From IMG/VR virus record IMGVR_UViG_3300012232_000017, positions 1 through 51,128 of that record: a stretch of DNA of 51,128 bases; one strand, given 5' to 3'. Position 1 is the stretch's first letter. Every line of letters begins with the position of its first letter. Under the pieces are notes generated by a model. That model had not been told where the DNA came from. It was given only the letters and a program-made list of their open reading frames with translations, and made no database searches. The DNA comes from a virus (taxonomy: Duplodnaviria > Caudoviricetes). The position numbers were made by a program, and so were the translations under genes. Positions 5,357 through 34,624 of the stretch are shown here, piece by piece.

Positions 5357-5426
5357 TTAAATAATTAAATTTAACTGTAAGCATTATTTTGACAATGTGT
5401 TTAACTGTTTTTCGCGGGTCTAAGCC

Positions 5427-5849: not shown

Positions 5850-5858
5850 TGTTTTTAA

Positions 5859-6437
5859 TTAGGATAATTGTGTAGTCCAATCTGTTACAGGTCTATCACC
5901 TACTTCTTCAATAAATGCACTTAATTGTGAGGATTCTCCATATTTATCTTTTTTGAAAATAAAATAATCTGCTCTTTGTAGATAAATGTTATTATCTAGA
6001 GAATCTAAATAGAGTCTCGCAGCTTTCATTATGTCTTCTTTAGAATATTGTGGATTTTCTTGCATCCAACGATACATTTTCTCTCTACAACTAATTTCAG
6101 AACCCATACTTCCAGGCTTTTTACCTCTCCATAAATTCCTATAAGGAACAATGAATGTATTAAGTTCATTATCTATTAATCTAGATGATTTTTTAATAAC
6201 TTTCTTATTACCAGAGCTGATGTTATCTATTGAAATTAAGTCAATAAACAGCTTTCCTTTTTCTCTTAGTATTATTTCTTTATCTTCTGTTATTTTAACG
6301 AACTGCTTATCTTGCAACGATATATACTGAGCGGGATATGTTTTACCCATTGCAGTATATATCAAAACAAGGTATTCTTCAATAGATAATTTTTGCTCTT
6401 TTAATAGATTAAAATCTAAAATAAAAGCTCCATCCAT
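5859..6437 (-). CDS. Conserved phage protein near the helicase (possible wHTH replication initiator or loader)
   Basis: N-terminal wHTH-like pattern and C-terminal YLQRADYFIFK; function inferred from position. Confidence 0.45.
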   Translation of the reverse strand: MDGAFILDFNLLKEQKLSIEEYLVLIYTAMGKTYPAQYISLQDKQFVKITEDKEIILREKGKLFIDLISIDNISSGNKKVIKKSSRLIDNELNTFIVPYRNLWRGKKPGSMGSEISCREKMYRWMQENPQYSKEDIMKAARLYLDSLDNNIYLQRADYFIFKKDKYGESSQLSAFIEEVGDRPVTDWTTQLS

Positions 6438-6539
6438 TAATCGTCTTTTTCACAACATTTGTGATAAATAATAGCACAGAACATAAGGAAAAATATAACT
6501 CCCATAATAGCAAAACCCATTTGAGTTTCTGAAGCATTT

Positions 6540-8060: not shown

Positions 8061-8444
8061 TTACTTTTTAAAAATATAGTCTTTATAAGTCTCTTTTAAA
8101 TCCTTCAAGACTTTCGGATTACGTTTAGAAACCTTCACTAACTGTACTTTACAATCATGATACATAGTGACTGGAATATCATATTCTTCATCATCTATAA
8201 TAATCTTTCTGTGTCTCAGTTTTAGGAATTTTTCTAATAAGTCAGTAGGAACATCTTCAACTCGATCTTCTTCTATGAATTTCACAGTAGATATCCAATT
8301 ATTATCTTCTCTTCTGACACCTGATAGGTATAGATCTTTATTGTCGTATGATTTAAACAAAAAATTATCTGGTACCTCGTAAAATTTGTGATTAATCCTT
8401 ACCATTATGGACCCCGGACGTGCGCTCTTAACTTTTTCATTCAT
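8061..8444 (-). CDS. Hypothetical protein
   Basis: Translationally coupled (TAATG) to the Prs-like gene. Confidence 0.65.
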   Translation of the reverse strand: MNEKVKSARPGSIMVRINHKFYEVPDNFLFKSYDNKDLYLSGVRREDNNWISTVKFIEEDRVEDVPTDLLEKFLKLRHRKIIIDDEEYDIPVTMYHDCKVQLVKVSKRNPKVLKDLKETYKDYIFKK

Positions 8445-9319
8445 TAAAATACATTTAATTGTTTAATTTTAAACCATCTACAAACTTCTGGATCCATATC
8501 TCTATAACTATTTGTACAATAAATTGCTTCAAATAGCTCATGAAGATCCGCAACTACTTTACTAAATATACCATGTGTAACAATAAGATAAATTTTACTA
8601 TCATCAAATGATCTATCTTCTCTAATAGTTCTTGCAATATTAAGAAATGTTGCACCACCATCAAAAATATCATCTATAATAACAAAATCTTTACCTCTAT
8701 GTCTATCACGTAGTGGTACAGTAGTTTTAGATAATTCACCAGAAGTATTACGATCTTTACTACAAGTCATAATATCTCCAACAAAGCCCATAGAATCCGC
8801 CAGTTTGTAAACTTTTTTAGAAGCTCCCGCATCTGGTGAAACTAGAATAAATTCTTTATTATTAGATGCCTCTATTCTATCTTTCAAAAACTGATTAAAT
8901 AATTTCTTATTATCAAGTTTAATAAAATTATTCAAACAAGCCTCTAATACATCAGAATGTGGATCAAGCACCGTTACAGATGCAAAATCCTGAAGATTAA
9001 CTACAGGGCATACAACATCTTTAAGATAGTTATTAGAACCTACTTGAAATTGTCTATCTGACCTACTTCCTAAGAAATATGGTGCATATAAATGAATTTC
9101 TCTAAATCCTAAGCCTCTTAAAGATCTATTTGCACAAATAATTAATTCAAGATCTTGAAAACTATCAAGTCTAGCTTTAATAAAGATTGGAGTACTAGGC
9201 CCTCCTTCACTAAAGAAAGAATCTTGCAATATTCTTACCTGATGTTGTTTATCAGGAAAGTTAGATACCTCAAACTTTATGTCTGAGGTATCATTACTAG
9301 TTAAATTAAGCGTCAACAT
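8444..9319 (-). CDS. prs: PRPP-synthetase-like protein (candidate ADPR-PP synthetase, Adps, of NARP1)
   Basis: FPDKQHQV, PYFLGSRSDR, LDPHS, VSPDAGASKK, IIDDIFDGGATF and VTHGIFS motifs. Probable start is ATG at 9319 (MLTLNL) rather than 9355. Confidence 0.88.
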   Translation of the reverse strand: MLTLNLTSNDTSDIKFEVSNFPDKQHQVRILQDSFFSEGGPSTPIFIKARLDSFQDLELIICANRSLRGLGFREIHLYAPYFLGSRSDRQFQVGSNNYLKDVVCPVVNLQDFASVTVLDPHSDVLEACLNNFIKLDNKKLFNQFLKDRIEASNNKEFILVSPDAGASKKVYKLADSMGFVGDIMTCSKDRNTSGELSKTTVPLRDRHRGKDFVIIDDIFDGGATFLNIARTIREDRSFDDSKIYLIVTHGIFSKVVADLHELFEAIYCTNSYRDMDPEVCRWFKIKQLNVF

Positions 9320-10976
9320 AGATTTCAGAAAGTAATTTACTTCTAATTTCTTCAAGAGTTGTTTTACGAACTAGTTTTCCATTAAGGAATACGGTTCTTA
9401 ACAATCCTTCTTGCTCTTGAGCATATGTTTGAGACTCAACACAGATAATATCTCCATCTGCATTATTTGTCACGCGCAATAAACCTTTCTTAGATTTTTT
9501 AGTACCATCATCTGTGATAGGATCTTTCCAAATTTTACGTTCTTCAGTTCTAAATCTGTCATTTAAACCCCTACCCATTACTTTATGAGAGATCTCACCA
9601 TAAGTAGCTTTCATAGCAAATCCAAATACATCACGTGTATTATATTGATATGTATAAGACCCAATTCCAAAGACTACATTTGTTGATGCAAATCCTTTAT
9701 CTTTAAGTCTTTGACAAATCTCTTCGGCACGTGATAACGTAATAGAATCGCCGTAGATCGCTCCAATATGAGAATCTAATACTCTATACCCTTGCTCACT
9801 TAATATGCCTCCAAAAGTGTTCCAAAGTATCTCTACGAGGCCAATATGCTGAGGTTCTGGATGGATTTCTTTCCAAGCAAAACTATTCTCGTTGACCTCA
9901 TCTTCAGATAGTATATAATACTTTCTTTCATTACGATATACTTTATTCCATCCTGTCATATTATCAGGATAAGCACTACCATTAGCATCGAAGTTTAAAT
10001 TACCTTCAACAGCTGTACCACATAGAATATCTATAGGATTACCACTATCAGGACGAATCACAAGCTTGCCATCGCGAGCCATAATTTTATCTTTTAGTTG
10101 TGGTAAAAATATAGTAGCAACATCCCAAAGATTCCACGTATCAGATACAATAGATAATGGTCCTTTAGGATATAATTCCATTAGTCGTCTAAATGTGAGT
10201 AATTCGTCTTCTTTGGTACCCATGCACATAACGCTATGCTCAGTTGCAGGAATACTAGAACCAATAAGCCCGCTGCCAAAATAGCTGTTTTCGAGTACAT
10301 AGATAGCAGGGATATTATCAGATCCAGTGAAAGACAATAAATGACCCATGCCACTAAGAACAGACGATTCAATAGAGGACATGCCTCGCATACTGAAGTC
10401 GTGACCTTGCCAATTAATGAACTCAATATTTGTTTCATCAGTTTCTAAAGCATATTTAGTTAAGATTTTCTTATACTCATGTGCAATAGTAGCTGAAGTC
10501 ATCGGCTGCCATAACATACAAGATAAGAGTGATTCTAAATAATTTACTAACCACGCAAAATCCGGATGTGTATTAGTAATTGTTAACATTGGCACACCTA
10601 TAGGACATAGTGTACCTTCTTCAAGCGCTTTAATTTCAATTGGTAAATATCCTAAATCCCATAAAGCCTCAATATGACTAGTATCTACGTTACAATGACG
10701 TTTATACTCTTCAATCAATTTGTGCTTTTTAGAGATGTTAGGCCATTTTTTATGAAATTCTCTTTCAATTTCACTACCAAAGAAATCTTTATTGAACAAG
10801 TCAATTAAATATTCTTGTACAAAATGTTGTATACCAAATGTTACAACTTCTTGAATACTATCTATTCTACTTGCTCTTGGAGTCCAGTTAGAATAGAGCT
10901 TGGTCATATTCTCAGGATACATCTTTGTATGATGTATTTTGTAGAAGTCCACCAATAATAACGGATTAATTTTCAT
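9306..10976 (-). CDS. nadV: Nicotinamide phosphoribosyltransferase-like protein (NadV; candidate Namat of NARP1)
   Basis: DFYKIHH, YSNWTPR, HDFSMRG, SIPATEHSVM, SIVSDTW, VIRPDSGNP, IYGDSIT, GIGSYTYQYNTRD and KDPITDDGTKKS motifs. Confidence 0.92.
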   Translation of the reverse strand: MKINPLLLVDFYKIHHTKMYPENMTKLYSNWTPRASRIDSIQEVVTFGIQHFVQEYLIDLFNKDFFGSEIEREFHKKWPNISKKHKLIEEYKRHCNVDTSHIEALWDLGYLPIEIKALEEGTLCPIGVPMLTITNTHPDFAWLVNYLESLLSCMLWQPMTSATIAHEYKKILTKYALETDETNIEFINWQGHDFSMRGMSSIESSVLSGMGHLLSFTGSDNIPAIYVLENSYFGSGLIGSSIPATEHSVMCMGTKEDELLTFRRLMELYPKGPLSIVSDTWNLWDVATIFLPQLKDKIMARDGKLVIRPDSGNPIDILCGTAVEGNLNFDANGSAYPDNMTGWNKVYRNERKYYILSEDEVNENSFAWKEIHPEPQHIGLVEILWNTFGGILSEQGYRVLDSHIGAIYGDSITLSRAEEICQRLKDKGFASTNVVFGIGSYTYQYNTRDVFGFAMKATYGEISHKVMGRGLNDRFRTEERKIWKDPITDDGTKKSKKGLLRVTNNADGDIICVESQTYAQEQEGLLRTVFLNGKLVRKTTLEEIRSKLLSEIYVDA

Positions 10977-16163: not shown

Positions 16164-16759
16164 TACCTAATGTTTAAAGACATATAAACTTGATAAATAC
16201 TTTTCATAGCACCATATTCTGGATTCATAAATCCTGTCATCATATCTACAAAATGATAAGATGAATAACATGATGATACAACTGCAGTAATACCAAAAAT
16301 TACAGTTAATGCAATATTAGATTCTTTCATCTCCTGCTCTTCAGTCAATTCTTTCTTCATTACATTAAATTGTATGTAAAATCTATACCACAATATAACA
16401 GCACCTATAGTTAATAGTAAATAACACCAAGACCATACTTTTTGCTGTTTTACAAGTATGTCCCATACCTGATTAGTGGTCTTTTCGAGCTTATTAGCGA
16501 TCGCTACGATCATCTTTTTAGCTTCAGGTGTTAGATCCTTAACTATGTCTTTTGCGTCCGTATAAACAGTTGTAATGGCTTCCTTACCATCTCCATAAAC
16601 TGTAGATGTACCATCTTTTACTGTCTTACTAAAGCTCTTGCTTGGAGCAAATGCTTTAACAGTTTCTGCAGCCTTATTAACTGCATGTGTTGCCACCTTC
16701 TCTGCTTGTGCAGAGGCCATAAATCCTGATAACAGGAGTAAAGATAAAAATTTCCGCAT
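16163..16759 (-). CDS. Signal-peptide membrane protein
   Basis: Sec-type signal MRKFLSLLLLSGFMASAQA, an amphipathic helical region and two TM helices. Confidence 0.7.
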   Translation of the reverse strand: MRKFLSLLLLSGFMASAQAEKVATHAVNKAAETVKAFAPSKSFSKTVKDGTSTVYGDGKEAITTVYTDAKDIVKDLTPEAKKMIVAIANKLEKTTNQVWDILVKQQKVWSWCYLLLTIGAVILWYRFYIQFNVMKKELTEEQEMKESNIALTVIFGITAVVSSCYSSYHFVDMMTGFMNPEYGAMKSIYQVYMSLNIR

Positions 16760-16777
16760 ATTTATTAATTAAGATTG

Positions 16778-17068
16778 TTACAAACTCCTTAAATCCTTCC
16801 AAAAATTATCTTTTATATATAGAGGATTTAATACTATTACTACACTTCTATTCTTATTTGCAACTAAATATAGTACAAAGAATATAACATATACTCCAAT
16901 TGTCACTAAGAAAAATATAAATGACCATACAAATATAGGATCTGTAGTACTTAATATATACCATGTATTTAATCCATGATTTAACACAAATAGTTTCAAT
17001 ATCCAATATAATATTACTGGAAATAAGAAACATCTAAATAAAATAATTGCTAATCTACTAATTGTCAT
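16778..17068 (-). CDS. Small membrane protein
   Basis: Two TM segments. Confidence 0.55.
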   Translation of the reverse strand: MTISRLAIILFRCFLFPVILYWILKLFVLNHGLNTWYILSTTDPIFVWSFIFFLVTIGVYVIFFVLYLVANKNRSVVIVLNPLYIKDNFWKDLRSL

Positions 17069-17286
17069 ATTTATTTTTTAGTCGTTTTACAATAACAGTA
17101 TCTGGGTGATAAATCGAGGCAGATAACCACCCATTACTGTACTTTCTCTAGAATTATATGTCTAGATAACATTATGACTTGACTACTATTCTCGTGGCTA
17201 GTGCGAGACTACTAATAATAATAAAAGTACCAACGATTAGGTTTTTATTATATTCATAGGCGACCGTTTTACATAGTAGTCATTTT

Positions 17287-17628
17287 CTAATTATGCTGTT
17301 TTAGATATTCTGTATGTAGAAAATCTACCGGATGAATATATTTATCATCTTCATAAAACAATTTCATCAATTGATTTAATAATCTAGAATGTGTATCTTG
17401 GCAAAAATGAAGAGGTTTTTTTGGATTAAAGATAACTTTATGTGATAAATGTGTCATACATAATTCCATCCAATGTAATCTTGTAAATTTACCTTGTTCT
17501 TCTAAATTACGGAATACAAATATTCCGTCTACAATTACTGCTCCTGCAACTGTTAAGTCTGGAAAGAAATAATTACACATATCGAATATCTTCGCCATGT
17601 GTTCTGCTGTTAATACTATCTTATTCAT
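17287..17628 (-). CDS. Hypothetical Bacteroidetes-phage protein
   Basis: LHWMELCMTHL and HPVDFL motifs. Confidence 0.65.
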   Translation of the reverse strand: MNKIVLTAEHMAKIFDMCNYFFPDLTVAGAVIVDGIFVFRNLEEQGKFTRLHWMELCMTHLSHKVIFNPKKPLHFCQDTHSRLLNQLMKLFYEDDKYIHPVDFLHTEYLKQHN

Positions 17629-17897
17629 TTTGATTTTAATTTGTCTAGTGTTTTGATTAATAATTCTATTTCGTCGGTCTGTTGTTTAATTTCGAATTCT
17701 CTTTCTTGAATTTGATGAGATACAAGATCTATCAAATGCTGTTTCATTTCAGTTAAGATTAATAATCTATCATCTTCTGAAAAGTGTTCAAATACATATT
17801 TTGCAAGTATTTTAGCTTCTGTTTTAGCTATCTTATTTGCACTTGGTACATAGTGTATAAACAAATACAAAAAATACCTTTTTAGCCGTTTTTTCAT
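17625..17897 (-). CDS. Hypothetical coiled-coil protein
   Basis: 90-aa ORF overlapping the next gene by 4 nt (ATGA). Confidence 0.6.
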   Translation of the reverse strand: MKKRLKRYFLYLFIHYVPSANKIAKTEAKILAKYVFEHFSEDDRLLILTEMKQHLIDLVSHQIQEREFEIKQQTDEIELLIKTLDKLKSK

Positions 17898-17907
17898 AAC
17901 AAAATCT

Positions 17908-18069
17908 TTATGTTAATGTAATCGTAATGTTAAACCTTTTATTCTTGTTTTGAGCTAATTTATCAACAAGATAGGCTTGCATATGGACTTTGTTCTTAAA
18001 AATGATTTCATCATTGTAAGGTTTTTTACGTTTGTCCTTACGAACGTGTTGAGGTTGGTTTTCACTCAT
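17908..18069 (-). CDS. Small basic hypothetical protein (53 aa, not in the track)
   Basis: Manual translation MSENQPQHVRKDKRKKPYNDEIIFKNKVHMQAYLVDKLAQNKNKRFNITITLT, preceded by an A-rich leader. Confidence 0.55.
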   Translation of the reverse strand: MSENQPQHVRKDKRKKPYNDEIIFKNKVHMQAYLVDKLAQNKNKRFNITITLT

Positions 18070-18099
18070 GGTTAGTTAGTTTTTTGGTTAAACAGTTAA

Positions 18100-18300
18100 T
18101 TAATCACTATCTTTCATATAATCTATTAATAGTCTATGATGCGTAATATTTCTATTACAAAACTGATATTTATGAGTCTCGGCTTTATTCCAAGACTCAG
18201 TAAGTTTCTCTCTACAAATAGGACAGAAGCCATCTTTTATGATGTCTTCTATACTTTGTCTATTTGTAACTCTTTTAGGGGTTAAGCTTTTTAATCTCAT
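18100..18300 (-). CDS. Small zinc-ribbon protein
   Basis: CPIC...CNRNITH. Confidence 0.55.
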   Translation of the reverse strand: MRLKSLTPKRVTNRQSIEDIIKDGFCPICREKLTESWNKAETHKYQFCNRNITHHRLLIDYMKDSD

Positions 18301-18713
18301 TATTCAATTAATTTAAGAAATTCTGCAATTTTTTTACGTTCTCCTGGATTCATATCCAATAATTGTTTAATCATTACACTTAATGGTTGTAATGGTTCTT
18401 TACGCATAAGCTTACCATCTTTAGTTTTAGCAACTTTATTATTACTAAAACCTACTGGAGATGCAGTAATAACATTACTTTTCTCTTTACCACTACTAAT
18501 AAGATAATAATATCTTGCAGATACACTGCAATGTTTTCTATTTTTAAGTTTTTTAGATGCTTCTCTAAATCCATGTCTTAAATTATCAGGATATCTCATT
18601 ACCATATCTAAGATAAGTTTATCCTCAGATGGAGAATAACGATCTGGCATTGTTTTCTTTACTTTAGCATTTGGAATTACTGCATCAACGATTGATTGGT
18701 TTGTGTTACTCAT
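18300..18713 (-). CDS. Myb/SANT-like HTH domain protein (putative transcription regulator)
   Basis: YSPSEDKLILDMV...FREASKKLKNRKHCSVSARYY matches the Myb/RsfA-like pattern WTxEEDxxL...AxxLxxRTxxxCxxRW. Confidence 0.6.
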   Translation of the reverse strand: MSNTNQSIVDAVIPNAKVKKTMPDRYSPSEDKLILDMVMRYPDNLRHGFREASKKLKNRKHCSVSARYYYLISSGKEKSNVITASPVGFSNNKVAKTKDGKLMRKEPLQPLSVMIKQLLDMNPGERKKIAEFLKLIE

Positions 18714-18915
18714 TTTGTTTGTTTTAGGTTGTTTATTTATTAATTGTTTGTTTAGTTTTAAAACACCCTATTCTTATAGCTTACCGAGTTATCAGTTACG
18801 GAGCTTGTATAAAAATAGGGTGTTATACATTAAATATCACCATGTTATTGCACATTTTTCCCAGATAACGGTAAAGCTGGTTCTGCTGTGTCCAGCACCT
18901 ATTTAATGCATTAGA

Positions 18916-18966
18916 CCTACGTTAGGGATTCGAACCCATATTTGTATAACCACTCATGGTCGTAGG
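18916..18966 (-). ncRNA. Second anticodon-less tRNA-like minihelix
   Basis: CCTACG/CGTAGG stem, ACCA-TGAG-TGGT hairpin and T-arm GGG-TTCGAAT-CCC. Confidence 0.45.
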
Positions 18967-19176
18967 ACATTCAGGAAGAATGTTTTATATATTATAATAG
19001 TAATTTAATATTATGATGTCTTTCCACCAGTCAGTCTCGTATAAATTTGTCACTGTATGAAAATAAAAGAAAAACCTCATATATTGGGCTCAGCAACTTT
19101 GACTCACGCATTTACACTAGCAACCTTACCGACAAGTAAAGATTCTTATACAAGCCCAACACACTTCTCAAGCGAG

Positions 19177-19504
19177 TGGAGCCGGGGGGAATCGAACCCC
19201 CGTCCAAAATAGTCTTCGCATACGAGATGTATACAGTTTCACGTTTTTAAGCTGTTACGCTCAGTCGGGGTTAACCAGCGGTTAACAATCCACCACCAGT
19301 TTTAATTTAAACTGGAAATCCTTAGAATATTATGCAGCCATTAGGGTTCTAACATTAGTGCTAACACCAATTCCACCTAAAGCAATTACTTTAGCCGAAG
19401 CTATTTGTACATTTTTGCCATTTATTCAATTCACCTTAGTTTAGAGTTATCTCTCTCACTGATCTCGTTAACTACTAATCCATCTGTCAAAACCAGTCGG
19501 CCCC
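19177..19504 (-). ncRNA. ssrA: tmRNA (transfer-messenger RNA)
   Basis: 5' end GGGGCCGACTGGTTTTGACAG and 3' end GGACGGGGGTTCGATTCCCCCCGGCTCCA. Acceptor stem GGGGCCG/CGGCTCC has the G3:U70 Ala determinant. An internal tag ORF ends in MAA-stop. CCA is not fully encoded. Confidence 0.95.
19330..19419 (-). other. tmRNA tag reading frame: (A)GKNVQIASAKVIALGGIGVSTNVRTLMAA*
   Basis: Resume context AATAAAT-GGC (Gly resume codon, as in Bacteroidetes tags); open for 29 codons to GCT GCA TAA. Confidence 0.8.
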
Positions 19505-19539
19505 AATTGGGGTTTTGAATGGACCCCATACCATTTATA

Positions 19540-22131
19540 TTATTGTTTAATCATACGTAAAGTTTTCACTTCAGTAGCTTGATTTAAAATAATATTGTAA
19601 ATACCAGTTGGATAATTGCTTCCAAAATTTGTAAAGTCAAATTCAGATGGATTTACTGTTCTTGTTTCAACATTTCTTCCTAATATATCAAATACATTGA
19701 TATCTACAGGATGAATAGTATTACTACTTTGAATTGAAAAAGAATTAGTAAATGGATTTGGATAAGCTTTAAAAGTAGTTGAAGTAGCTACCTTCCCGGT
19801 AGCATTAACCCCCTTTTTTAATACCACACATGTTGATTGGGTTGTATTAGGTGATTTAACAACATTACAATGATCAGCACCACCTAAATTATTAAATCCA
19901 TCTAATGTAGCACCAAGAGGACCACAAGTACCTTCTGCAAAAGCTGCATTAACTAAACCTTGTAAATCTGCTATAGTTGCAACTGAATAGTTTAATGTAC
20001 CATTACAAATATTTAATACTGCAGCAACAGATTGACGTGCTAAATTTTCACAATTAGTATTACCTTTTAAATTCAAGGCTTGTACTAATGTTAAATTAGG
20101 ATCAAGTGTTGAACCAGAGAATACATCTTTGTACAATGTACAAGTTTTGTATTCAGGACACCAAGCTAATGTGTGATTTTTCCAATATCCTAAAGTACAT
20201 CCATTAGGAGGATTACATCCAGAAGTTGTCCAAGTTACTGTACGTTGTACTTGAGCAGCTTGATTTCCACAGTCATCAAATCCATTCCAAGTTCTGGTTT
20301 GAGTAAAATGACATGATTCAGTTTCTGTTACAGGACCATCAGCTGCAGTTAAATGTGCACTACAAACATCAAATATTTGAGCAGTACCTAAAGCAGCTAA
20401 AATTTGAGCAGGAGTAGGATCAACACCTAAAGTAGGAGCAAGATCTAAAGTAATAACAGGAGCAATAAGATCTACTGTCCAAACAAATGTTTGTTGACAA
20501 GATCCTGTATTTCCACAAGCATCAGTAGCACTATAAGTAATTACTAATCTTCGTAAACAACCATCTTCTGTGATAGTACCTACTGAAGAAGTAGTTGGTA
20601 AACTACCATCACAATTATCATTAGCTGTAGCTACTTCAGGAGTTGGAGTTGGAACATTACATCCTAAAACTCTATCTCCAGGACATGTTACAACTGGAGC
20701 AGTAGTATCTACTTTCCAAGTATATATTGCCTCTTGACTAACACTATTACCACAAGAATCTGTTTTTGAATAAGTAAATACTTGTCTACGTCCACAACCA
20801 TCACTTGTAATTTGACCAGCAGAACAATTTGCTGCTGCAGTAGCATCACAATTATCTGTTGCAGTCACATTAGGATTACATGATGGAAGAACTGTTGGAT
20901 TACATCCTAAATCACCACCTGCAGGTACATCATGCAATACAGGAGCTGTAGTATCTATTCTGTATGTAAATACCTGAGGACATGTTGCAGTTTGACCACA
21001 CTCATTTGTTACTGTATAAGTACGAGTAAGTGTTTGTGCACACTCAGGACCTGTAACTACATCAGCAAATGTATACGGTAAAGTAGGACAAGCTGAAGTA
21101 ATTGTTGGAGCTGTTGGACCAGGAATAGTAGGATTGCATCCTAAAGCACCTCCTGGTGCACATGTAATTTGTGGAGGAAGAGAATCTCTTACTAAAAATG
21201 TACGTGTACAACTATCTGTTTGACCACAACGATCTGATACTGACCATATTACTGTAACAGTACCACCACAATGATTTGGAGCATGTACTTCTCCTGTAGG
21301 TGTTCTAACTGTGATCACTGGAGCAAATCCACCATCAACGGAGAATGAATTCAGCCATTGTTGAAAGATAACTTCAAGATCCGCTTGAGAAGCACATGCA
21401 GGTCTATCTACATTAATAGGACAACTAAGAACAAGTGGATTAGGAGCTACAGGTGCGATAATAATAGTAGTACTATCTTCACAACCAAATCCACCACCTA
21501 CTAATACTTCGCGAGCATTAATAGTATGAGTACCAGCACCTACGTTAGGAAATAAACCTGTACCATTAGAAATTGCACCTGGTGTACCAGGATTTAATGT
21601 ATACAAATAAGGAGGTGATGGTACAAATGGAACACCAAATGATACTTGCGTAACTGCTATAGCTGTTATTGTAGTCACATCAGTAGGACATGTTAATGGA
21701 GGTGCAGTAGCACTCACGTTAACATCTCTCACTAATCGTGAAGATGAACAACTACCTAGCGGATTAGGCGTTAAATCTGGATTTAAAAACTGCATTAATA
21801 CAGTTAATGAACCGGCTTGGTTTCCAACGTTAACTAAAACGTTATTTAATGTACCATCTGGATCACTACCAACAGCAACTCTGTCAATAGATGTACCTAA
21901 ATTAGTACCAACACCATCAGTAAAATATGCATTTGTTTGATTTACAGGTATAGTCCAACGAATTGTTAATCCATTTCCTGCAGCATTAACACGTGCACCA
22001 TATATTGAAGTAACTCCAATACAAGAACGTGGTGGTATTGTTTCCATCACATTACAATTTGGTGGTTCTTGTGCGAACACACCTGTCGTCAATAAGACGA
22101 ATAAGGACAAAAATGATAAAATTTTTTTCAT
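19540..22131 (-). CDS. Secreted Cys-rich HYR-like repeat protein with a type IX secretion system (T9SS, type A) C-terminal sorting domain
   Basis: Sec signal MKKILSFLSLFVLLTTGVFAQ; about five repeats DTTAPV..C...LGCN...ATDNCD...D.CGN...Q.FTW; a GYWKNH domain; CTD AYPNPF...VFDILGR...GIYNIIL...LRMIKQ. Confidence 0.9.
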   Translation of the reverse strand: MKKILSFLSLFVLLTTGVFAQEPPNCNVMETIPPRSCIGVTSIYGARVNAAGNGLTIRWTIPVNQTNAYFTDGVGTNLGTSIDRVAVGSDPDGTLNNVLVNVGNQAGSLTVLMQFLNPDLTPNPLGSCSSSRLVRDVNVSATAPPLTCPTDVTTITAIAVTQVSFGVPFVPSPPYLYTLNPGTPGAISNGTGLFPNVGAGTHTINAREVLVGGGFGCEDSTTIIIAPVAPNPLVLSCPINVDRPACASQADLEVIFQQWLNSFSVDGGFAPVITVRTPTGEVHAPNHCGGTVTVIWSVSDRCGQTDSCTRTFLVRDSLPPQITCAPGGALGCNPTIPGPTAPTITSACPTLPYTFADVVTGPECAQTLTRTYTVTNECGQTATCPQVFTYRIDTTAPVLHDVPAGGDLGCNPTVLPSCNPNVTATDNCDATAAANCSAGQITSDGCGRRQVFTYSKTDSCGNSVSQEAIYTWKVDTTAPVVTCPGDRVLGCNVPTPTPEVATANDNCDGSLPTTSSVGTITEDGCLRRLVITYSATDACGNTGSCQQTFVWTVDLIAPVITLDLAPTLGVDPTPAQILAALGTAQIFDVCSAHLTAADGPVTETESCHFTQTRTWNGFDDCGNQAAQVQRTVTWTTSGCNPPNGCTLGYWKNHTLAWCPEYKTCTLYKDVFSGSTLDPNLTLVQALNLKGNTNCENLARQSVAAVLNICNGTLNYSVATIADLQGLVNAAFAEGTCGPLGATLDGFNNLGGADHCNVVKSPNTTQSTCVVLKKGVNATGKVATSTTFKAYPNPFTNSFSIQSSNTIHPVDINVFDILGRNVETRTVNPSEFDFTNFGSNYPTGIYNIILNQATEVKTLRMIKQ

Positions 22132-22233
22132 TCGATTTTTTATATATAAAAATGTTAATAAATATTTTAATCTTCCTTTTTAGACCGCCTAAGCGGGGGA
22201 CCCTTATTTCTATGTGCAAAATAATTCAACATA

Positions 22234-22458
22234 TTAATAATTTATTAAAGTTATTGTAACTATATATAAAAATGCCATTATTGCTATTAAATAAGTAAGA
22301 CGATATCTTGAAGATTTTCTTCTTATAATATAACAAAATTCTAATGTAGCTAATATGGTAGCTACCACCAACAGTGTTACTGTAAATGTTATCATAAAGG
22401 AAACATTGTTAAAATTAAAACTATATTTAAAATTACAATTACAATAGCACCTAAACAA
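22234..22458 (-). CDS. Small membrane protein (likely start MITFTV near 22395)
   Basis: Two TM segments; ATGA overlap with the upstream ORF. Confidence 0.45.
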   Translation of the reverse strand: MFRCYCNCNFKYSFNFNNVSFMITFTVTLLVVATILATLEFCYIIRRKSSRYRLTYLIAIMAFLYIVTITLINY

Positions 22459-22580
22459 ACTAAAAATTGTTCAGGGCCATAACATTTCTCTGTGGCTCTA
22501 TAAGCCCAGTTTAATAAGTTCGCTATAATAATATTTACAATAAATACTATTATTAATATTGTGCTTATAGGAACCATCAT
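22392..22580 (-). CDS. Small membrane protein
   Basis: Two TM segments. Confidence 0.55.
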   Translation of the reverse strand: MMVPISTILIIVFIVNIIIANLLNWAYRATEKCYGPEQFLVCLGAIVIVILNIVLILTMFPL

Positions 22581-22759
22581 GAGTTCAAGATATATCCTAA
22601 ATTAAACAATATTACTACAGATGTTATAAGTATAACTATACCTATAGCAGTTCTACCACCCACACCATCAGTAGATGTTTCATTCCATTTACTAGATACA
22701 TCATACCAATATAATGCATTTAATAAAAATATTACTCCTATTAAAATTAATCTTTCCAT
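22577..22759 (-). CDS. Small membrane protein
   Basis: Two TM segments; coupled overlaps. Confidence 0.55.
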   Translation of the reverse strand: MERLILIGVIFLLNALYWYDVSSKWNETSTDGVGGRTAIGIVILITSVVILFNLGYILNS

Positions 22760-22965
22760 TATGGTTCATAATTAGTTAATTTTTTCCATTTAGCTTCTAA
22801 ATCATTATACATTATAACGATTTTATTACTCATTGTAGCCATAGGTAAAGAAAATAGAAATCTCATTTCTTTTTCTATTTCTTTTATTTTTTCTTCTTTA
22901 CCTTCTCTTGTTTCTCTTCTTTTAACCGGTATTAGTGGATGCATAGGTCTTTTTTTAGTTGTCAT
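22759..22965 (-). CDS. Small basic hypothetical protein
   Basis: 68 aa, coupled in the operon. Confidence 0.55.
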   Translation of the reverse strand: MTTKKRPMHPLIPVKRRETREGKEEKIKEIEKEMRFLFSLPMATMSNKIVIMYNDLEAKWKKLTNYEP

Positions 22966-23227
22966 AAATCTCTACACTATATGTTGAGTTAAATGTCATT
23001 AAAATTAATGTTTCAGGATTAAATGATATAACTTCAGAAGTTAATACTTTAGGTCCTGATGTTAGATCAAGTGTTGGATATAAATATAATCCAAAGCCAA
23101 TTTTGATATCATCATATTTGTGATATCCTTGTATCATTTTACTCCCAATAGGTAATCTACCGGGAGTTATGATATCTTCTACATTGTTGTTTGCAACTTT
23201 TGTAAGTATTAAATACTTATTTTTCAT
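22955..23227 (-). CDS. Hypothetical protein
   Basis: 90 aa; ends in TSEV...TFNSTY, a common small phage beta-domain pattern. Confidence 0.6.
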   Translation of the reverse strand: MKNKYLILTKVANNNVEDIITPGRLPIGSKMIQGYHKYDDIKIGFGLYLYPTLDLTSGPKVLTSEVISFNPETLILMTFNSTYSVEIYDN

Positions 23228-23228
23228 T

Positions 23229-23447
23229 TCAATTTTTTAATATATCGTTAATGTATATGGCTGAAATAAACCAACCTATAATGGTTCCAATCCAGAAAGG
23301 AACACTATTGGCAATAATACCACCTAATGTAATTTCTGAAGCTCCTGCAACTATTGCAGAAATTAAAAAAGGTACAAATATACCTAATACAAATATTGAT
23401 AATAAAACCAACATTGCTTCACCTGTTTTAAATAATAATTTTTCCAT
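23229..23447 (-). CDS. Small membrane protein
   Basis: Two TM segments. Confidence 0.55.
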   Translation of the reverse strand: MEKLLFKTGEAMLVLLSIFVLGIFVPFLISAIVAGASEITLGGIIANSVPFWIGTIIGWFISAIYINDILKN

Positions 23448-23488
23448 TTTTTCTAAGATTTTTGTTTGTTTAAATTGTTTGTTGTTTG

Positions 23489-23671
23489 TTAATCGTAATC
23501 AAAAATAATTAATAGTATAGCTAATACTATAAAAAAAGGTACTGAAATTGGTGCTAATATAATAAATATCCATTCTTTTTTGGATATAGTTTTATCTTCT
23601 TCTTTTTGTACGTGATATAATAATATGCACAAAAGATAACATATTGCACAATAAATAATAAATCCTACCAT
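23489..23671 (-). CDS. Small membrane protein
   Basis: Two TM segments; preceded by a structured leader. Confidence 0.55.
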   Translation of the reverse strand: MVGFIIYCAICYLLCILLYHVQKEEDKTISKKEWIFIILAPISVPFFIVLAILLIIFDYD

Positions 23672-23684
23672 AATAATAAATTTT

Positions 23685-23822
23685 GTGTTTTACACCTAAA
23701 AACTAATACTTGTACTATAAATGTGGTTGTTCACAAATATAATACAGAATATTAGAAACTAAGGTGGCCTCAACAACTTGGCATTGTCAACCTACTATAG
23801 GTTGGTCTTACGACTTTAAGTT
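23685..23822 (-). ncRNA. Candidate structured RNA or cis-regulatory leader (pseudoknotted)
   Basis: Stems AACTT/AAGTT, GTC/GAC, CAACCTA/TAGGTTG, CTAATA/TATTAG and a GTTTT-AGGTGT-AAAAC hairpin whose loop can pair with CACCT. Confidence 0.45.
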
Positions 23823-23849
23823 TTTTCATCTATACAATATAGATATTTT

Positions 23850-24176
23850 TTATGAATGTAACCATTCAACAAGTTCTTTATGTGTTTTAAATTGAAAAGC
23901 ATTTTTACTATCATCTTCAGTAGTATTAAACACATGATTCTTTAAAACAGCTTGATTATCTTTATAAGCACAACCTTTAACATTAAAATCTTTATCCATT
24001 ATATATGAATATACTTTACCATTTAAAGTCATTTTAATAATAGTATATTTTGTATCAAACAATATTATACCAATAAACATATTATCCGTTACTTTATCTA
24101 TAGCAAGGACAATCTCTGTATCTCCAGTAACTATTCTTTTCATCCTTTTCCGTTTTCTTCTAATACTCGACGACAA
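23850..24176 (-). CDS. Hypothetical protein (start likely downstream, MKRIV)
   Basis: ORF in the early operon. Confidence 0.55.
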   Translation of the reverse strand: MSSSIRRKRKRMKRIVTGDTEIVLAIDKVTDNMFIGIILFDTKYTIIKMTLNGKVYSYIMDKDFNVKGCAYKDNQAVLKNHVFNTTEDDSKNAFQFKTHKELVEWLHS

Positions 24177-24433
24177 TCATCAAGATTAGCTGGTGCAACA
24201 ATTACTGTATCTTCTAATGATACTCTAATAACTAATAACTGCCCATCTTTAGGCATTTGATCATCTGTACCTACAAATCTAACTACCACATTGTGGTCTT
24301 TAAGTTTATTTTTAGATGCATTTCTAAATTTTGATAACTCTTGAGCATCTTTAATTTCTCTAAGTTTACCACTTCTACTTTGGCAAGATATAACTCCTAG
24401 AGCTATAATTGCAATTAATATTAATTTTTTCAC
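24140..24433 (-). CDS. Putative lipoprotein
   Basis: MKKLILIAIIALGVISC lipobox. Confidence 0.65.
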   Translation of the reverse strand: MKKLILIAIIALGVISCQSRSGKLREIKDAQELSKFRNASKNKLKDHNVVVRFVGTDDQMPKDGQLLVIRVSLEDTVIVAPANLDDCRRVLEENGKG

Positions 24434-24444
24434 TTTTGTTTAAT

Positions 24445-24702
24445 TTAAGGATTAAATATTTCTTTTTTAATAATACAATGTATTCCATCTTCTGATTTAA
24501 ATGAATATACTTTGTCATTTTGTAATACTAATCTGAATCTTCTGAATTGATTAGTTTGTTGATTAACAATATAAAATTGTCTTCCGCCATTTGGAAAACA
24601 AATTGCAAAGTTAGGTACATATAAATCTTTTTCATTACCATAAAGTGTTTTACACACTTTATTATATGTAAAGAATCTAATGTCATATTTACAATTTATC
24701 AT
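24445..24702 (-). CDS. Hypothetical protein
   Basis: 85-aa ORF with an A-rich leader. Confidence 0.55.
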   Translation of the reverse strand: MINCKYDIRFFTYNKVCKTLYGNEKDLYVPNFAICFPNGGRQFYIVNQQTNQFRRFRLVLQNDKVYSFKSEDGIHCIIKKEIFNP

Positions 24703-24801
24703 TTTTTTTATTTTTAGGTGGTGTGTGAAATATTAACACAATAATTGTAATAAAATAGCATAAAGCGATTGAACCACCCATTAAATAGAATAACCACATA
24801 A

Positions 24802-25218
24802 TTAGTTGTTATAAGTATAAACAATGTATTCTTTTTTCTTATTACCATATTGATAAACTTTAAACTTTGTTTTAGTTTTACCGTCTTGATAAATATAACC
24901 TGCATTAAATTCAATTACATAAACCATATCATATTGTTCATAAGTAATAGTATAATCTGTTGACTCTATTACTCTGCACTCTTGATTATCTATTAATAAT
25001 TTATTATTAGATGGATTAAATTTAATTGATATAGTTTCAGGTTCAAATGGTTTATGAACATTAGCACCTCCTTGTGGAGTAAATTCAACTATCATAATTT
25101 TTTTACCTGTTTCATTAAATCCTTCTGAAGGATTAATTGTTCTCATAGTACCTATTGGTTCATTAGAACAAGAGGATACTACTATTGCTAGTAGTATCCA
25201 TATTGATAACTTTCTCAT
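24802..25218 (-). CDS. Putative lipoprotein
   Basis: MRKLSIWILLAIVVSSC lipobox; beta-rich mature domain. Confidence 0.65.
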   Translation of the reverse strand: MRKLSIWILLAIVVSSCSNEPIGTMRTINPSEGFNETGKKIMIVEFTPQGGANVHKPFEPETISIKFNPSNNKLLIDNQECRVIESTDYTITYEQYDMVYVIEFNAGYIYQDGKTKTKFKVYQYGNKKKEYIVYTYNN

Positions 25219-27949: not shown

Positions 27950-28032
27950 TAAATAAGAGCTATAGGCAAGTAAAAAAAAATGAAAATAATTGCAAAAAAA
28001 TTAGGTTTTCTCAAATTAATTTTGTATCTTTG
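27950..28032 (+). promoter_or_regulatory. Bacteroidetes sigma-A-type promoter with conserved upstream element
   Basis: TAAATAAGAGCTAT at 27950; TTAG at 28001, 20-nt spacer, TATCTTTG at 28025. Confidence 0.65.
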
Positions 28033-28035
28033 TAC

Positions 28036-28240
28036 TTAGATATAAAGATGCAACTAGTTAAGGATATGGTTGCCCAATTTAGCTGGACACGGCAGCACTC
28101 TATAAGAGGTTTGGGATAACGGGTTTTGAGAGGTATGACAACTTCCATAACACTGGCTAGCCAAGCGGACCATGAAGGCCTAAGACGGGCAATCGTGGAA
28201 ACCTCTCTATATCTAATAGACAACAGTAGAGTTCTACTGT
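28036..28240 (+). ncRNA. Candidate ~180-nt structured RNA or long leader
   Basis: Terminal stem TTAGATATA (28036)/TATATCTAA (28208); inner stem TATGGTTGCCC/GGGCAATCGTG; followed by hairpin ACAGTAG-AGTT-CTACTGT. Confidence 0.45.
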
Positions 28241-28290: not shown

Positions 28291-28683
28291 ATGGAAAATA
28301 ATAACGTAGGACATCTAGTATGTGTTTGTGCAACAGAACTTATGAATGCCGCTGTAAGTATACATAAGTTACATTTAAGTATTACAGGACCTGGTTCTTA
28401 TGCGGCACATAAGACATTGAATGAATTGTATGACGCTTTACCTGGACATGCTGATAATCTGGTAGAAGGATATCAGGGAGCAACAGGTGAAATAGTGTCA
28501 TGTGAAAATTCTTTACCAAAAACTTTGAATACTGTAGAAGAATGTTTATCTTATATTACGGAACTGAAAGAAAATATTACAAGTTTGCAATCAAAATTAT
28601 CAAATAGAAAAATTATTAATGATCTTGATAATGCAAAAGCTGATTTAAATATTACAGCATATAAATTGAAATTTTTACAATAA
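28291..28683 (+). CDS. Ferritin/Dps-like four-helix-bundle protein
   Basis: HKLHL.ITGPGSYAAHKTLNELYD...ADNLVEGYQG and C-terminal YKLKFL, a Dps-like ferroxidase pattern. Confidence 0.8.
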   Translation: MENNNVGHLVCVCATELMNAAVSIHKLHLSITGPGSYAAHKTLNELYDALPGHADNLVEGYQGATGEIVSCENSLPKTLNTVEECLSYITELKENITSLQSKLSNRKIINDLDNAKADLNITAYKLKFLQ

Positions 28684-28688
28684 TTTTT

Positions 28689-28922
28689 ATGAAAAAAATA
28701 TTCCTAATATTAATAGTATTTATATGTACATCGTTCATAGATTTTCCATGTCATCCAGCAGGAGATAAAGGTCCTTGTACACATAGAGTACATTATAGAG
28801 ATCACTTACCTTGCACACATTATAATTGGTGGGGATATCCAGTACATGATTATGATATTTATCCTTGCAGTCATAGGATGCATTCGTTTGATTGGTATCC
28901 TTGTTTTCACGAATGTTATTAA
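28689..28922 (+). CDS. Secreted His/Cys-rich repeat miniprotein
   Basis: Signal peptide followed by four HxxDxxPCxH units. Confidence 0.7.
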   Translation: MKKIFLILIVFICTSFIDFPCHPAGDKGPCTHRVHYRDHLPCTHYNWWGYPVHDYDIYPCSHRMHSFDWYPCFHECY

Positions 28923-28934
28923 TTAAAAATAGAT

Positions 28935-29219
28935 ATGAGAAAATTGCTTTTGTTACTAGTATTATTTATAGTTACATCTTGTGCGGTAACCACAGGGGCA
29001 GGTGTAACTTGTTATAGAAGAGTGTGTACAGGTGATGCATATATATATGCTCACACTCCAAGACAAGGGAGTAGAGATGTACATGTTATTAAGGTAACAA
29101 ACACTTATATTATCATTAAGGATGATAAGGATGGTAAGGAATATAGAGTTCCTCCTGGACAGTTAAAGAAACGTGGCTATCCTGTAAAAACACATTATCC
29201 TAATAGAGGTCAAGGATAA
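28935..29219 (+). CDS. Putative lipoprotein
   Basis: MRKLLLLLVLFIVTSC lipobox; C-terminal PPGQLKK motif. Confidence 0.65.
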   Translation: MRKLLLLLVLFIVTSCAVTTGAGVTCYRRVCTGDAYIYAHTPRQGSRDVHVIKVTNTYIIIKDDKDGKEYRVPPGQLKKRGYPVKTHYPNRGQG

Positions 29220-29302: not shown

Positions 29303-29332
29303 GTCCCACTAGAAATAGTGGGATTTTTTTTT
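29303..29332 (+). terminator. Intrinsic terminator
   Basis: GTCCCACTA-GAAA-TAGTGGGAT followed by a T tract. Confidence 0.8.
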
Positions 29333-29351
29333 GAAAATAATTCACTTTTTA

Positions 29352-29383
29352 TTTGCTTTTATCAATTTAATTTCGTATATTTG
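29352..29383 (+). promoter_or_regulatory. Bacteroidetes sigma-A-type promoter
   Basis: TTTG (29352), 20-nt spacer, TATATTTG (29376); 15 nt before the ATG at 29399. Confidence 0.75.
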
Positions 29384-29398
29384 TATAAAATTAGAAAT

Positions 29399-29991: not shown

Positions 29992-30075
29992 TGTGGACAC
30001 TTTGTTTATAATACTAGGAGCAATAGCTGCAGTATTAGTAGTTAGAAAAATAAATGGAAAATAATTCATTAAAAA

Positions 30076-30107
30076 TTTGCATATGTCAAAACTATTTCGT
30101 ACCTTTG
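30076..30107 (+). promoter_or_regulatory. Bacteroidetes sigma-A-type promoter
   Basis: TTTG (30076), 20-nt spacer, TACCTTTG (30100). Confidence 0.75.
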
Positions 30108-30129
30108 TACTAATATTAAAAACAGATAT

Positions 30130-34055: not shown

Positions 34056-34624
34056 TGAAGTTGTTTGAAATGAAAGACTTCACGTTAAACGTAAGTGTTG
34101 AAGCGTGGGGTCTTTTGCCTTTTAAGGCAATACTAAAGAGAGACAAAAGCAGAGGTAAAGAAACTGCTTTTAAGGAGATGTTATTTATATATTATTATTC
34201 AGATATACGTTCTGATTATATGTATATAACTAACGATAAAGAGAGACAAAGAGAAATTGTTAAAGATATTGGACTTGATTCAGATTGGACTATGCATGAA
34301 ACTATTAAGGAGGCAATAGCCTTCTATAAAAGTAAATCCATTACTCCAATAGGTAAGCTATATATGTCATCGCTTATAGCAGCTGATGATGTATCTAAGT
34401 ATCTAGAATCAACTAAAGAATTACTAGACGAACGTACTGCAAATGGTTCAACTGTAACTACTTTACCGATGATTATGACATCTCTTAAAACTATACCTGC
34501 TATTATGAAAGACTTAAAAGCTGCATATAAGGAGGTATTAGCTGAACAGAAAGAATTAGAAGGAAGAACTAAAGGCAGTCGTACAATGGGTCTCTTCGAA
34601 GACGGACTTAATTTTGAAGAATAA
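34055..34624 (+). CDS. Conserved crAss-like protein upstream of terminase (possible small terminase subunit)
   Basis: PFKAILKRDKS...KEMLFIYYYSDIRSDY pattern and C-terminal RTKG; function inferred from position. Confidence 0.5.
   Translation: MKLFEMKDFTLNVSVEAWGLLPFKAILKRDKSRGKETAFKEMLFIYYYSDIRSDYMYITNDKERQREIVKDIGLDSDWTMHETIKEAIAFYKSKSITPIGKLYMSSLIAADDVSKYLESTKELLDERTANGSTVTTLPMIMTSLKTIPAIMKDLKAAYKEVLAEQKELEGRTKGSRTMGLFEDGLNFEE

What the first reader, a model, noticed from the sequence alone, without database searches (positions are those of the whole stretch)
19540..22131. Phage-encoded cargo for the host type IX secretion system
Seen: an 863-aa ORF with a Sec signal peptide ending in Gln (+1), about five Cys-rich HYR-like repeats, a GYWKNH domain and a typical type-A T9SS CTD (YPNP...FDILGR...GIY...IK). 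It is co-oriented within the phage early arm and has phage-like A/T-ending codons. Established: such CTDs route proteins through the Bacteroidota T9SS to the cell surface or medium. Inference: an apparently lytic crAss-like phage may use the host T9SS to display or secrete a large disulfide-rich adhesin-like protein. Possible roles are receptor masking or superinfection exclusion, jamming T9SS or gliding, or aggregating infected cells with new hosts. I know of no described case of this.
Basis: partly seen in the sequence, partly recalled or inferred. Interest (0 to 1): 0.82.

Follow-up and report, generated by a model that had tools for sequence, protein, structure and literature searches.

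The report
Phage-borne adhesin for host T9SS export
A crAss-like phage carries an intact gene for a cysteine-rich fibre with both export tags that Bacteroidota use for surface proteins; the gene was likely captured from Flavobacterium and passed between distant phages with its tip swapped, so infected cells probably display it and would stick to different things, an idea already raised for other phage genes but untested here.

Summary
Window 19540-22131 (-) encodes 863 aa: signal peptide, two tip domains, five Cys-rich HYR-like repeats, a helical GYWKNH domain and a type A T9SS CTD. The CTD passes curated cut-offs and folds like solved CTDs. One unitig spans both gene borders with no differences. 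The phage is phi14:2-like (Crassvirales). The gene is accessory: it was found in 0 of 26 relatives, and it sits 35 nt upstream of a tmRNA common in this clade. Full-length homologues occur in about ten contigs of a distant crAss-like lineage. Its 3' 1.9 kb is 76.6% identical to one of them, although capsid proteins share about 20%. The tip has a different history (p-AU 0.00024), and the CTD shows the lowest dN/dS (0.15-0.22). The sister clade holds Flavobacterium sp. proteins of the same architecture. Best reading: a captured fibrillar adhesin, made early, exported by the host T9SS and changing what infected cells adhere to. Receptor masking is the main rival; nothing functional is shown.

The parts
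19540..22131 (-). Whole gene, 863 aa (P0001): adhesin-like T9SS type A cargo; mature form about 88 kDa, pI 4.7, 40 Cys
22072..22131 (-). Sec/SPI-type signal peptide, aa 1-20, followed by Gln21
   Evidence: Read by eye; Gln at +1 in 18 of 18 family members; Bacteroidetes Q-rule, PMC5837995 abstract
21442..22071 (-). Variable tip: two beta-sandwich domains, aa 21-143 and 144-230
   Evidence: Model; 23-32% identity to L001 but 37-55% to L140/P0022/L144; tip tree rejects the C-terminal clade, p-AU 0.00024
20224..21441 (-). Stalk of five Cys-rich HYR-like repeats, aa 231-636
   Evidence: Pfam HYR_4C, 5 stretches; model; DNA repeat spacing of about 234-246 nt
19822..20223 (-). Helical GYWKNH domain, aa 637-770; in its close relatives it usually sits just before a CTD
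   Evidence: Model pLDDT mostly above 85; 1318 clusters at E<=0.001; 81 of the top 100 have a CTD behind it by my own profile
19540..19776 (-). T9SS type A CTD, aa 786-863, ending at the C-terminus
   Evidence: top Foldseek hit 8glk_D (NucA CTD), E 3.1e-4, TMt 0.78; VIA Z 9.1, rmsd 2.2, 75 aligned
19540..21451 (-). Tract shared with the L001 allele of a distant crAss-like lineage, 76.6% nt over 1934 columns, ending at the stop codon
19174..19504 (-). Phage tmRNA, 35 nt downstream; a resident feature of this clade that marks the insertion slot, not part of the cargo gene

Best explanation
This crAss-like phage carries an intact accessory gene for a tip-stalk-CTD protein, likely captured from a Flavobacterium surface adhesin, that is probably made early in infection, is predicted to be exported by the host Sec and type IX secretion systems, and would then change what the infected cell sticks to. 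Shown: the gene, its signals, its phage context, its absence from the close relatives searched, and a phage-borne clade sister to Flavobacterium proteins of the same build. Inferred steps: (1) The gene is transcribed with the early arm, together with the tmRNA behind it. (2) Sec moves the protein to the periplasm, SPI exposes the Gln, and up to 20 disulfides form. (3) The CTD is recognised by the T9SS translocon and cleaved, and the protein is anchored to the outer membrane or partly shed. (4) The five-repeat stalk holds a variable tip away from the surface. There it binds matrix or surface glycans of neighbouring host cells, so the burst happens next to new hosts. Tips are exchanged between phage alleles as the bound target varies.
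For: Export signals: the CTD passes curated cut-offs and folds like the NucA, FspA, RemA and RgpB CTDs. It is the most constrained part (dN/dS 0.15 and 0.22 versus 0.59 and 0.64 for the stalk, against L001 and L134). Gln is at +1 in 18 of 18. No catalytic domain was found. Host origin: P0031 (WP_348063159.1, Flavobacterium sp.) aligns over aa 1-489 (32%) and 644-863 (39%). In a 98-row tree the 17 family rows form one clade (SH-aLRT 100), sister (98) to 9 rows that include two named Flavobacterium sp. proteins. Maintenance in phages: full-length homologues occur in 4 IMG/VR loci and in 14 of 15 metagenome loci. They lie in different slots and in both orientations. 5 of 9 have a TAnnTTTG element 30-35 nt before the ATG, against 15 of 211 other ORFs in a 100-nt window (motif recalled). 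Tip swapping: three alleles with near-identical stalks (window, L001, L134) carry three different tips. Timing: in phi14:2 the replicative arm is early, with maximum abundance within 90 min of an infection sampled to 190 min (10.1101/2020.03.07.982082, passages). Its tmRNA lies in the intergenic region reported as highly transcribed from 40 min.
Against: No expression, export or binding data exist. The tip has no identified ligand-binding family: Pfam found nothing and fold matches were generic beta-sandwiches. The gene was found in 0 of 26 close relatives, 12 of them at least 90% complete, so it is dispensable. The L003 copy is split into two ORFs (557 + 328 aa), which may be decay or a sequencing error. 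Position and orientation differ among carriers, so timing is not conserved. The window copy lacks the TAnnTTTG element. The stalk dN/dS of about 0.6 is only weakly purifying, though extreme codon bias depresses dS. The host is not identified. The adhesion role cannot be told apart from receptor masking by sequence alone.
Confidence: 0.4

Rival explanations
1. Same export route, but the protein serves superinfection exclusion: it coats the infected cell, masks T9SS-secreted adhesin receptors, or binds and decoys the receptor-binding proteins of rival phages. The tip varies as part of a phage-phage arms race.
For: T9SS and gliding mutations give broad phage resistance in Flavobacterium, and SprB/RemA are thought to be receptors (PMC9804748, passages). 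Early position. Tip swapping. Bellas et al. proposed this for Cryophage.
Against: Known exclusion proteins of lytic phages are mostly small (recalled). An 88-kDa, 40-Cys fibre is costly for this job. The host ancestor is built like an adhesin.
Confidence: 0.27
2. Passenger: a host gene picked up by the phage pool and passed around by recombination, with little or transient benefit. Export may happen but does not matter.
For: Absent from 26 relatives. One split copy. Insertion slots vary. Stalk dN/dS about 0.6.
Against: The family forms a long-branched phage clade (branch 0.85) with intact signal peptide and CTD in nearly all members. GC3 is 0.09-0.19, at the low end of each locus. CTD dN/dS is 0.15-0.22.
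Confidence: 0.12
3. The exported protein is shed into the medium or on vesicles and acts outside the cell, for example by tethering released virions to surfaces or to host cells.
For: T9SS cargo is released in soluble form when it is not LPS-anchored (PMC5445135, passages). Ig-like repeat arrays are common on phage particles (generic BFVD matches).
Against: No virion-binding feature was identified. Nothing in the sequence separates shed from anchored cargo.
Confidence: 0.1
4. The protein's job is to jam the T9SS or gliding machinery by saturating the translocon.
For: Early slot beside a probably abundant transcript. Strong A/T-ending codon bias.
Against: A bare CTD would be enough. The full tip-stalk build is kept and tips are exchanged. 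The CTD looks canonical, not defective.
Confidence: 0.07
5. Virion decoration or fibre protein assembled in the cytoplasm, with a vestigial CTD; or an assembly chimera.
For: Copies in L003 and L145 lie among apparently structural or late genes.
Against: The signal peptide is kept in 18 of 18, there are 40 Cys, and the CTD is constrained. One unitig spans both borders. A second study (X2) holds identical 151-173-nt records inside the gene and in both flanks, though they are not bridged.
Confidence: 0.04

Closest known systems
T9SS type A CTD cargo genes of Cryophage (Bellas et al. 2020, PMC7468147; passages read)
   Same: Phage-encoded type A CTD cargo in a Bacteroidetes phage; variable between phage variants; proposed to hijack the host T9SS; no functional test in the passages read.
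   Different: Those cargoes are an endoglucanase, a GH39 and a PA14 protein in a 76-kb phage whose genes mostly hit integrated elements. This one has no catalytic domain, is a tip-stalk fibre, and lies in a Crassvirales phage whose complete relatives lack an integrase. A direct sequence comparison was not possible: the record is not held.
T9SS sorting-domain genes near BACON ORFs in gut phage contigs (de Jonge et al. 2019, PMC6949934; passages read)
   Same: T9SS sorting domains noted in Bacteroidetes phage contigs; role left open.
   Different: Those are BACON-associated and lie beside the head module. This gene has no BACON domain and lies in the early arm.
Flavobacterium sp. WP_348063159.1 (P0031) and kin: HYR-like repeat + SdrD_B + GYWKNH + type A CTD proteins
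   Same: Same tip, same repeat types, same GYWKNH domain and same CTD subtype; sister clade in the tree.
   Different: 32-39% identity. The cellular form is longer (1189-1365 aa) and has an SdrD_B domain that the phage family lacks. It is uncharacterised itself, and its genomic context could not be checked.
Type A CTD cargo of F. johnsoniae and P. gingivalis seen in solved structures (NucA 8glk, FspA 8glj, RemA 8gl6, RgpB 5ag9)
   Same: CTD fold (Z 8.4-9.1, rmsd 1.9-2.3, 65-75 aligned).
   Different: Cellular genes with unrelated passenger domains; only 12-21% identity in the CTD.
Cellulophaga phage phi14:2 (Crassvirales, Steigviridae, Akihdevirus)
   Same: Nearest cultured phage by MCP (61.8%); same early/late arm layout; a tmRNA near the start of the early arm; an annotated OmpA-domain membrane protein as g002.
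   Different: No homologue of this gene in it or in any of 50,697 GenBank phage records by tblastn.

Membership tests
T9SS type A cargo | N-terminal Sec/SPI signal peptide | tested here: met
   By inspection only (no SignalP): basic n-region, hydrophobic core, V-F-A|Q; same pattern in 18 of 18
T9SS type A cargo | C-terminal TIGR04183/PF18962 domain over the curated cut-off | tested here: met
   33.1 > 23 bits; 34.5 > 27 bits
T9SS type A cargo | CTD has the Ig-like fold of solved CTDs and ends the chain | tested here: met
   Top Foldseek hit 8glk_D; VIA Z 9.1, though DUF3244 proteins tie or score slightly higher
T9SS type A cargo | Export depends on T9SS; CTD cleaved; anchored or released | not testable with these tools
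   Needs expression in a T9SS host
T9SS type A cargo | Made in a cell that has a T9SS | tested here: inconclusive
   Host unknown; nearest named relatives of the protein are Flavobacterium sp.; nearest cultured phage infects Cellulophaga
T9SS type B cargo | CHU_C/TIGR04131 CTD | tested here: not met
   CHU_C 12.1 bits against a cut-off of 27
Fibrillar adhesin | Tip, tandem-repeat stalk and C-terminal surface-targeting signal | tested here: met
   Model and HMMs; family length varies 616-1212 aa with stalk repeat number
Fibrillar adhesin | Tip that binds a ligand | tested here: inconclusive
   No Pfam family; generic beta-sandwich matches, Z 8-10, including intimin/invasin domains
CLIPPER (DUF11) isopeptide domain | Lys that forms the Lys-Asn isopeptide bond | tested here: not met
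   Fold match Z 9.1, 21% identity, but aa 21-143 contain no Lys (bond described in passages)
PDF1_C-like domain (PF27764) | Structural match over the naming bar | tested here: inconclusive
   Atlas TM 0.72 over 117 aa to a PDF1_C cluster, score under the bar
Cryophage-type enzymatic or PA14 cargo | Glycoside hydrolase or PA14 passenger domain | tested here: not met
   No such Pfam or NCBIfam hit
Crassvirales | crAss-type MCP, portal and TerL | tested here: met
   phrog_11589, 6547, 6681; crAss_AuxCP; MCP 61.8% to phi14:2
Crassvirales | Virion-packaged RNA polymerase | not testable with these tools
   The record is a 51-kb fragment that ends before that module
Crassvirales | No integrase (lytic) | tested here: inconclusive
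   PF00589 found in 0 of 5 related records, 4 of them complete; the window itself covers only about half a genome

The most novel reading that the evidence does not exclude
Lytic crAss-like phages keep and trade a captured Flavobacterium adhesin with interchangeable tips. They have the infected cell display it through the host T9SS before lysis, so that it glues itself to uninfected kin or biofilm and delivers the burst to new hosts: a phage-encoded, allele-switchable steering of where lysis happens.
Probability: 0.25. Interest if true: 0.82.

Novelty: new variant of a known kind. Interest (0 to 1): 0.52.

Why it matters
The idea that Bacteroidota phages use the host T9SS has been in print since 2019-2020; my searches found no experimental test of it. 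This gene makes it directly testable with one self-contained ORF whose signals look canonical and whose likely host genus has a genetic model. It adds three things: the cargo is a non-enzymatic adhesin-like fibre traceable to a Flavobacterium family; it has moved between crAss-like lineages whose capsids share about 20% identity; and its tip is exchanged independently of stalk and export tag, as expected of a surface protein under changing binding pressure. If it is displayed, a lytic phage would be rebuilding the outside of its host with the very system that many flavobacterial phages depend on for entry.

Tried and rejected
PHROGs gave no family for P0001. tblastn of the whole protein and of GYWKNH+CTD against 50,697 GenBank phage records gave no match. 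The GTDB scan returned only 5 GYWKNH-only loci (4 Lysobacteraceae, 1 labelled Pseudomonadota). Its two patterns do not fit the Flavobacterium relatives found later, so it says nothing about absence of the wider family from cells. A type B CTD search over 30 records rang nowhere and had no positive control. The sigma-70 promoter/terminator scan was at chance level, with no terminator-like site on the gene's strand. Hairpins before and after the gene fold no better than shuffles. Foldseek of the full-length model gave only generic Ig arrays. The GYWKNH domain and the tip had no PDB sequence match. The GYWKNH domain was not folded alone, so its fold was barely tested against PDB. CLIPPER was rejected (no Lys). 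A CTD-only homologue search returned 4 proteins and no host name. Sequencing runs: no RNA holder listed. The lipoprotein co-occurrence scan of viral contigs confirmed nothing. No complex prediction was sent, since a CTD-PorV pair would pass by likeness to solved structures. Literature searches for a tested case or for this family found only the two papers cited; the library lacks most subscription journals, and supplements were not read.

Full report
Observation. The ORF is real: 19540-22131 on the minus strand, 863 aa, 40 Cys, GC3 0.09. It starts with an SPI-type signal peptide ending V-F-A followed by Gln. This was read by eye; the same cut exposes Gln in 18 of 18 family members with intact N-termini, in line with the Bacteroidetes Q-rule (PMC5837995, abstract). 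Pfam finds HYR_4C in five stretches and Por_Secre_tail over its cut-off; NCBIfam finds TIGR04183 over its cut-off at aa 790-863. A full-length model (mean pLDDT 67.5) shows two N-terminal beta-sandwiches, five repeats, a helical domain and the CTD. A model of the last 230 aa (pLDDT 85.6) has the NucA CTD from a T9SS translocon structure as top Foldseek hit (E 3.1e-4). FspA, mirolase, RgpB, RemZ and RemA CTDs score Z 8.4-9.1, with DUF3244 proteins level or slightly higher. No catalytic domain was found.

Context. The window is the whole record, a 51-kb fragment. It has a minus-strand replication arm and a plus-strand head arm with crAss-type TerL, portal and MCP. The MCP is 61.8% identical to that of Cellulophaga phage phi14:2, Steigviridae. 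A tmRNA lies 35 nt after the stop codon on the same strand, with no terminator-like site between. In run X1, which may be the source sample, one unitig covers 16265-25000 with no differences. Run X2, from another study, holds four identical 151-173-nt records in the gene and both flanks, not bridged. A chimera is therefore unlikely.

The gene is accessory. I took 26 of the 80 IMG/VR records returned with MCPs 78-93% identical, choosing mostly the longest. Neither TIGR04183 nor the family profile matched any of the 26, of which 12 are at least 90% complete; the four known carriers rang as positive controls. The tmRNA model matched 10 of those 12 at E<=0.001, some only weakly. In the closest complete relative (G005, MCP 93%) a 77-aa ORF fills the slot between the shared upstream gene and the tmRNA. 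An integrase was found in 0 of 5 related records, 4 of them complete.

The family. Full-length homologues occur in 4 IMG/VR loci and in 14 of 15 metagenome loci; the fifteenth is a GC-rich, domain-only hit. I listed the ORFs of 12 of the 15. L139 appears to be the same phage as L002, and L135 and L137 are too short to judge. Collapsing duplicates leaves about ten phage-like contigs, several of 125-127 kb. Their hallmark genes are Crassvirales, but of a lineage far from the window's: MCP about 20%, TerL 25% and portal 23% identical. Most loci share 7-13 proteins with G002. L134, L136 and L144 share none with it and are placed only by neighbours that resemble those in L001 and L138. The gene sits in different slots and in both orientations. 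Five of nine copies have a TAnnTTTG element 30-35 nt before the ATG, against 15 of 211 other ORFs (the motif is recalled as the Bacteroidota -7 consensus). The window copy lacks it.

Transfer and tip swapping. Nucleotides 21451-19540 are 76.6% identical to the L001 allele, ending at the stop codon. The tip domains are only 23-32% identical to L001 but 37-55% to L140, P0022 and L144. The five rows that group by GYWKNH+CTD are rejected as a clade on the tip alignment (p-AU 0.00024, quick tree, long end branch for the window). Since all other placed carriers belong to the distant lineage, transfer into this phage is the simplest reading; the direction is inferred. dN/dS against L001 and L134 is 0.15/0.22 for the CTD, 0.32/0.45 for the GYWKNH domain and 0.59/0.64 for the stalk. 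Codon bias lowers dS, so these values are probably overestimates.

Origin. The GYWKNH domain is widespread (1318 clusters). In 81 of the top 100 hits a CTD follows it, falling to 90 of 150 (my own profile). In a quick tree of 98 of 119 rows (21 dropped for lacking a full domain or a CTD), the 17 family rows form one clade (SH-aLRT 100); 10 of these come from loci I read and 7 have unchecked context. The sister group (98) has nine rows, including two named Flavobacterium sp. proteins. One of them, WP_348063159.1, matches tip, repeats, GYWKNH domain and CTD and adds an SdrD_B domain. Its own genomic context was not available. The GTDB scan used patterns that miss these relatives and is not evidence of absence.

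Mechanism. Established (PMC5445135, passages): T9SS cargo crosses the inner membrane by Sec, folds in the periplasm, is routed by its CTD, and is cleaved and either LPS-anchored or released. In phi14:2 the replicative arm is transcribed early by the virion RNA polymerase, and two intergenic regions near its start are abundant from 40 min onward (passages). I find a tmRNA at 4031-4502 in that interval. By synteny the cargo gene is probably read early, on the way to the tmRNA, with time for export before lysis. I put export at about 0.8. For the role I favour altered adhesion (0.40): the ancestor is built like an adhesin, the complete tip-stalk form is kept, and the tip is the part exchanged. 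Receptor masking or decoying (0.27) is close behind, because T9SS and gliding mutants are broadly phage resistant in Flavobacterium (PMC9804748, passages). Passenger status (0.12), action after shedding (0.10), jamming (0.07) and virion protein or chimera (0.04) follow. Against my reading: no expression or binding data, no named ligand for the tip, absence from 26 relatives, one split copy, and unconserved position.

Comparison and novelty. Phage-encoded type A cargo is described for Cryophage, with the same hijack and exclusion ideas (PMC7468147, passages), and noted in gut phage contigs (PMC6949934, passages). Six searches found no test and no account of this family; most subscription papers and all supplements were unseen. 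Earlier notes of this scan list 18 findings under the same search words, the eight shown all on phage T9SS cargo, and one look-alike of this protein on another genome. These are unchecked AI notes. I rate it a new variant of a known kind: a non-enzymatic, host-derived fibre that moves among lytic crAss-like phages with exchangeable tips.

Noticed in passing
L158:4031-4502 (phi14:2, NC_021806.1): A tmRNA (Rfam 46 bits, E 7.6e-16; ARAGORN) lies between g004 and g006, in the interval where the phi14:2 transcription preprint reports abundant long non-coding RNAs of undetermined function. One of them is probably this tmRNA.
   Followed up: partly
window 19174-19504 (-): Phage tmRNA with an unusually long tag, 29 aa ending LMAA. 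tmRNA matches occur in 10 of 12 near-complete relatives.
   Followed up: partly
window 28935-29219 (+): Small Cys-containing lipoprotein-like ORF. Homologues lie next to the cargo gene in L134, L136, L138 and G002, and 4.7 kb from it in L132/L133. It was found in 0 of 26 cargo-less relatives. Possibly a partner, or just a second gene from the same donor lineage.
   Followed up: partly
window 24140-24433 (-): Lipoprotein-like ORF 52-66% identical to genes of the distant carrier lineage, far above the 23-32% of core genes; a further sign of gene flow.
   Followed up: no
L145:1931-4489 and 4563-6443 (also L142, L143): Tandem paralogues: the first has signal peptide, tip and stalk but no GYWKNH domain or CTD and ends in a His/Cys/Lys-rich tail; the second is a short complete cargo.
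   Followed up: no
L001: about 5351-5437: A tRNA-like cloverleaf follows the homologue's stop after a GGGG..CCCC hairpin, echoing the window's junction with the tmRNA 5' end. It was not called by ARAGORN or Rfam.
   Followed up: partly
L001:5458-6066, L002:17570-18178, L004:18711-19349, L145:12063-12620: Signal-peptide proteins ending in Phe or similar, resembling outer-membrane beta-barrels, near the cargo gene in the distant lineage; the L145 one passes Pfam PagL.
   Followed up: no
window 27969-28046, 29320-29397, 30044-30121 (+): Three-copy repeat containing a TAnnTTTG element at the start of the head arm; likely host-type middle/late promoters.
   Followed up: no
window 8444-10976 (-), 28291-28683 (+), 34624-36093 (+): NAD salvage pair (NAMPT and a ribose-phosphate pyrophosphokinase-like gene), a Dps-like gene and a GroEL homologue.
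   Followed up: no
window 28689-28922 (+): 77-aa ORF with a hydrophobic N-terminus and His/Cys/Pro-rich repeats (C-x-H-R-x-H); no homologue in the loci tested.
   Followed up: no
P0022 (1212 aa): Family member in which the GYWKNH domain is replaced by an unrelated block of about 350 aa, with tip, stalk and CTD kept.
   Followed up: no
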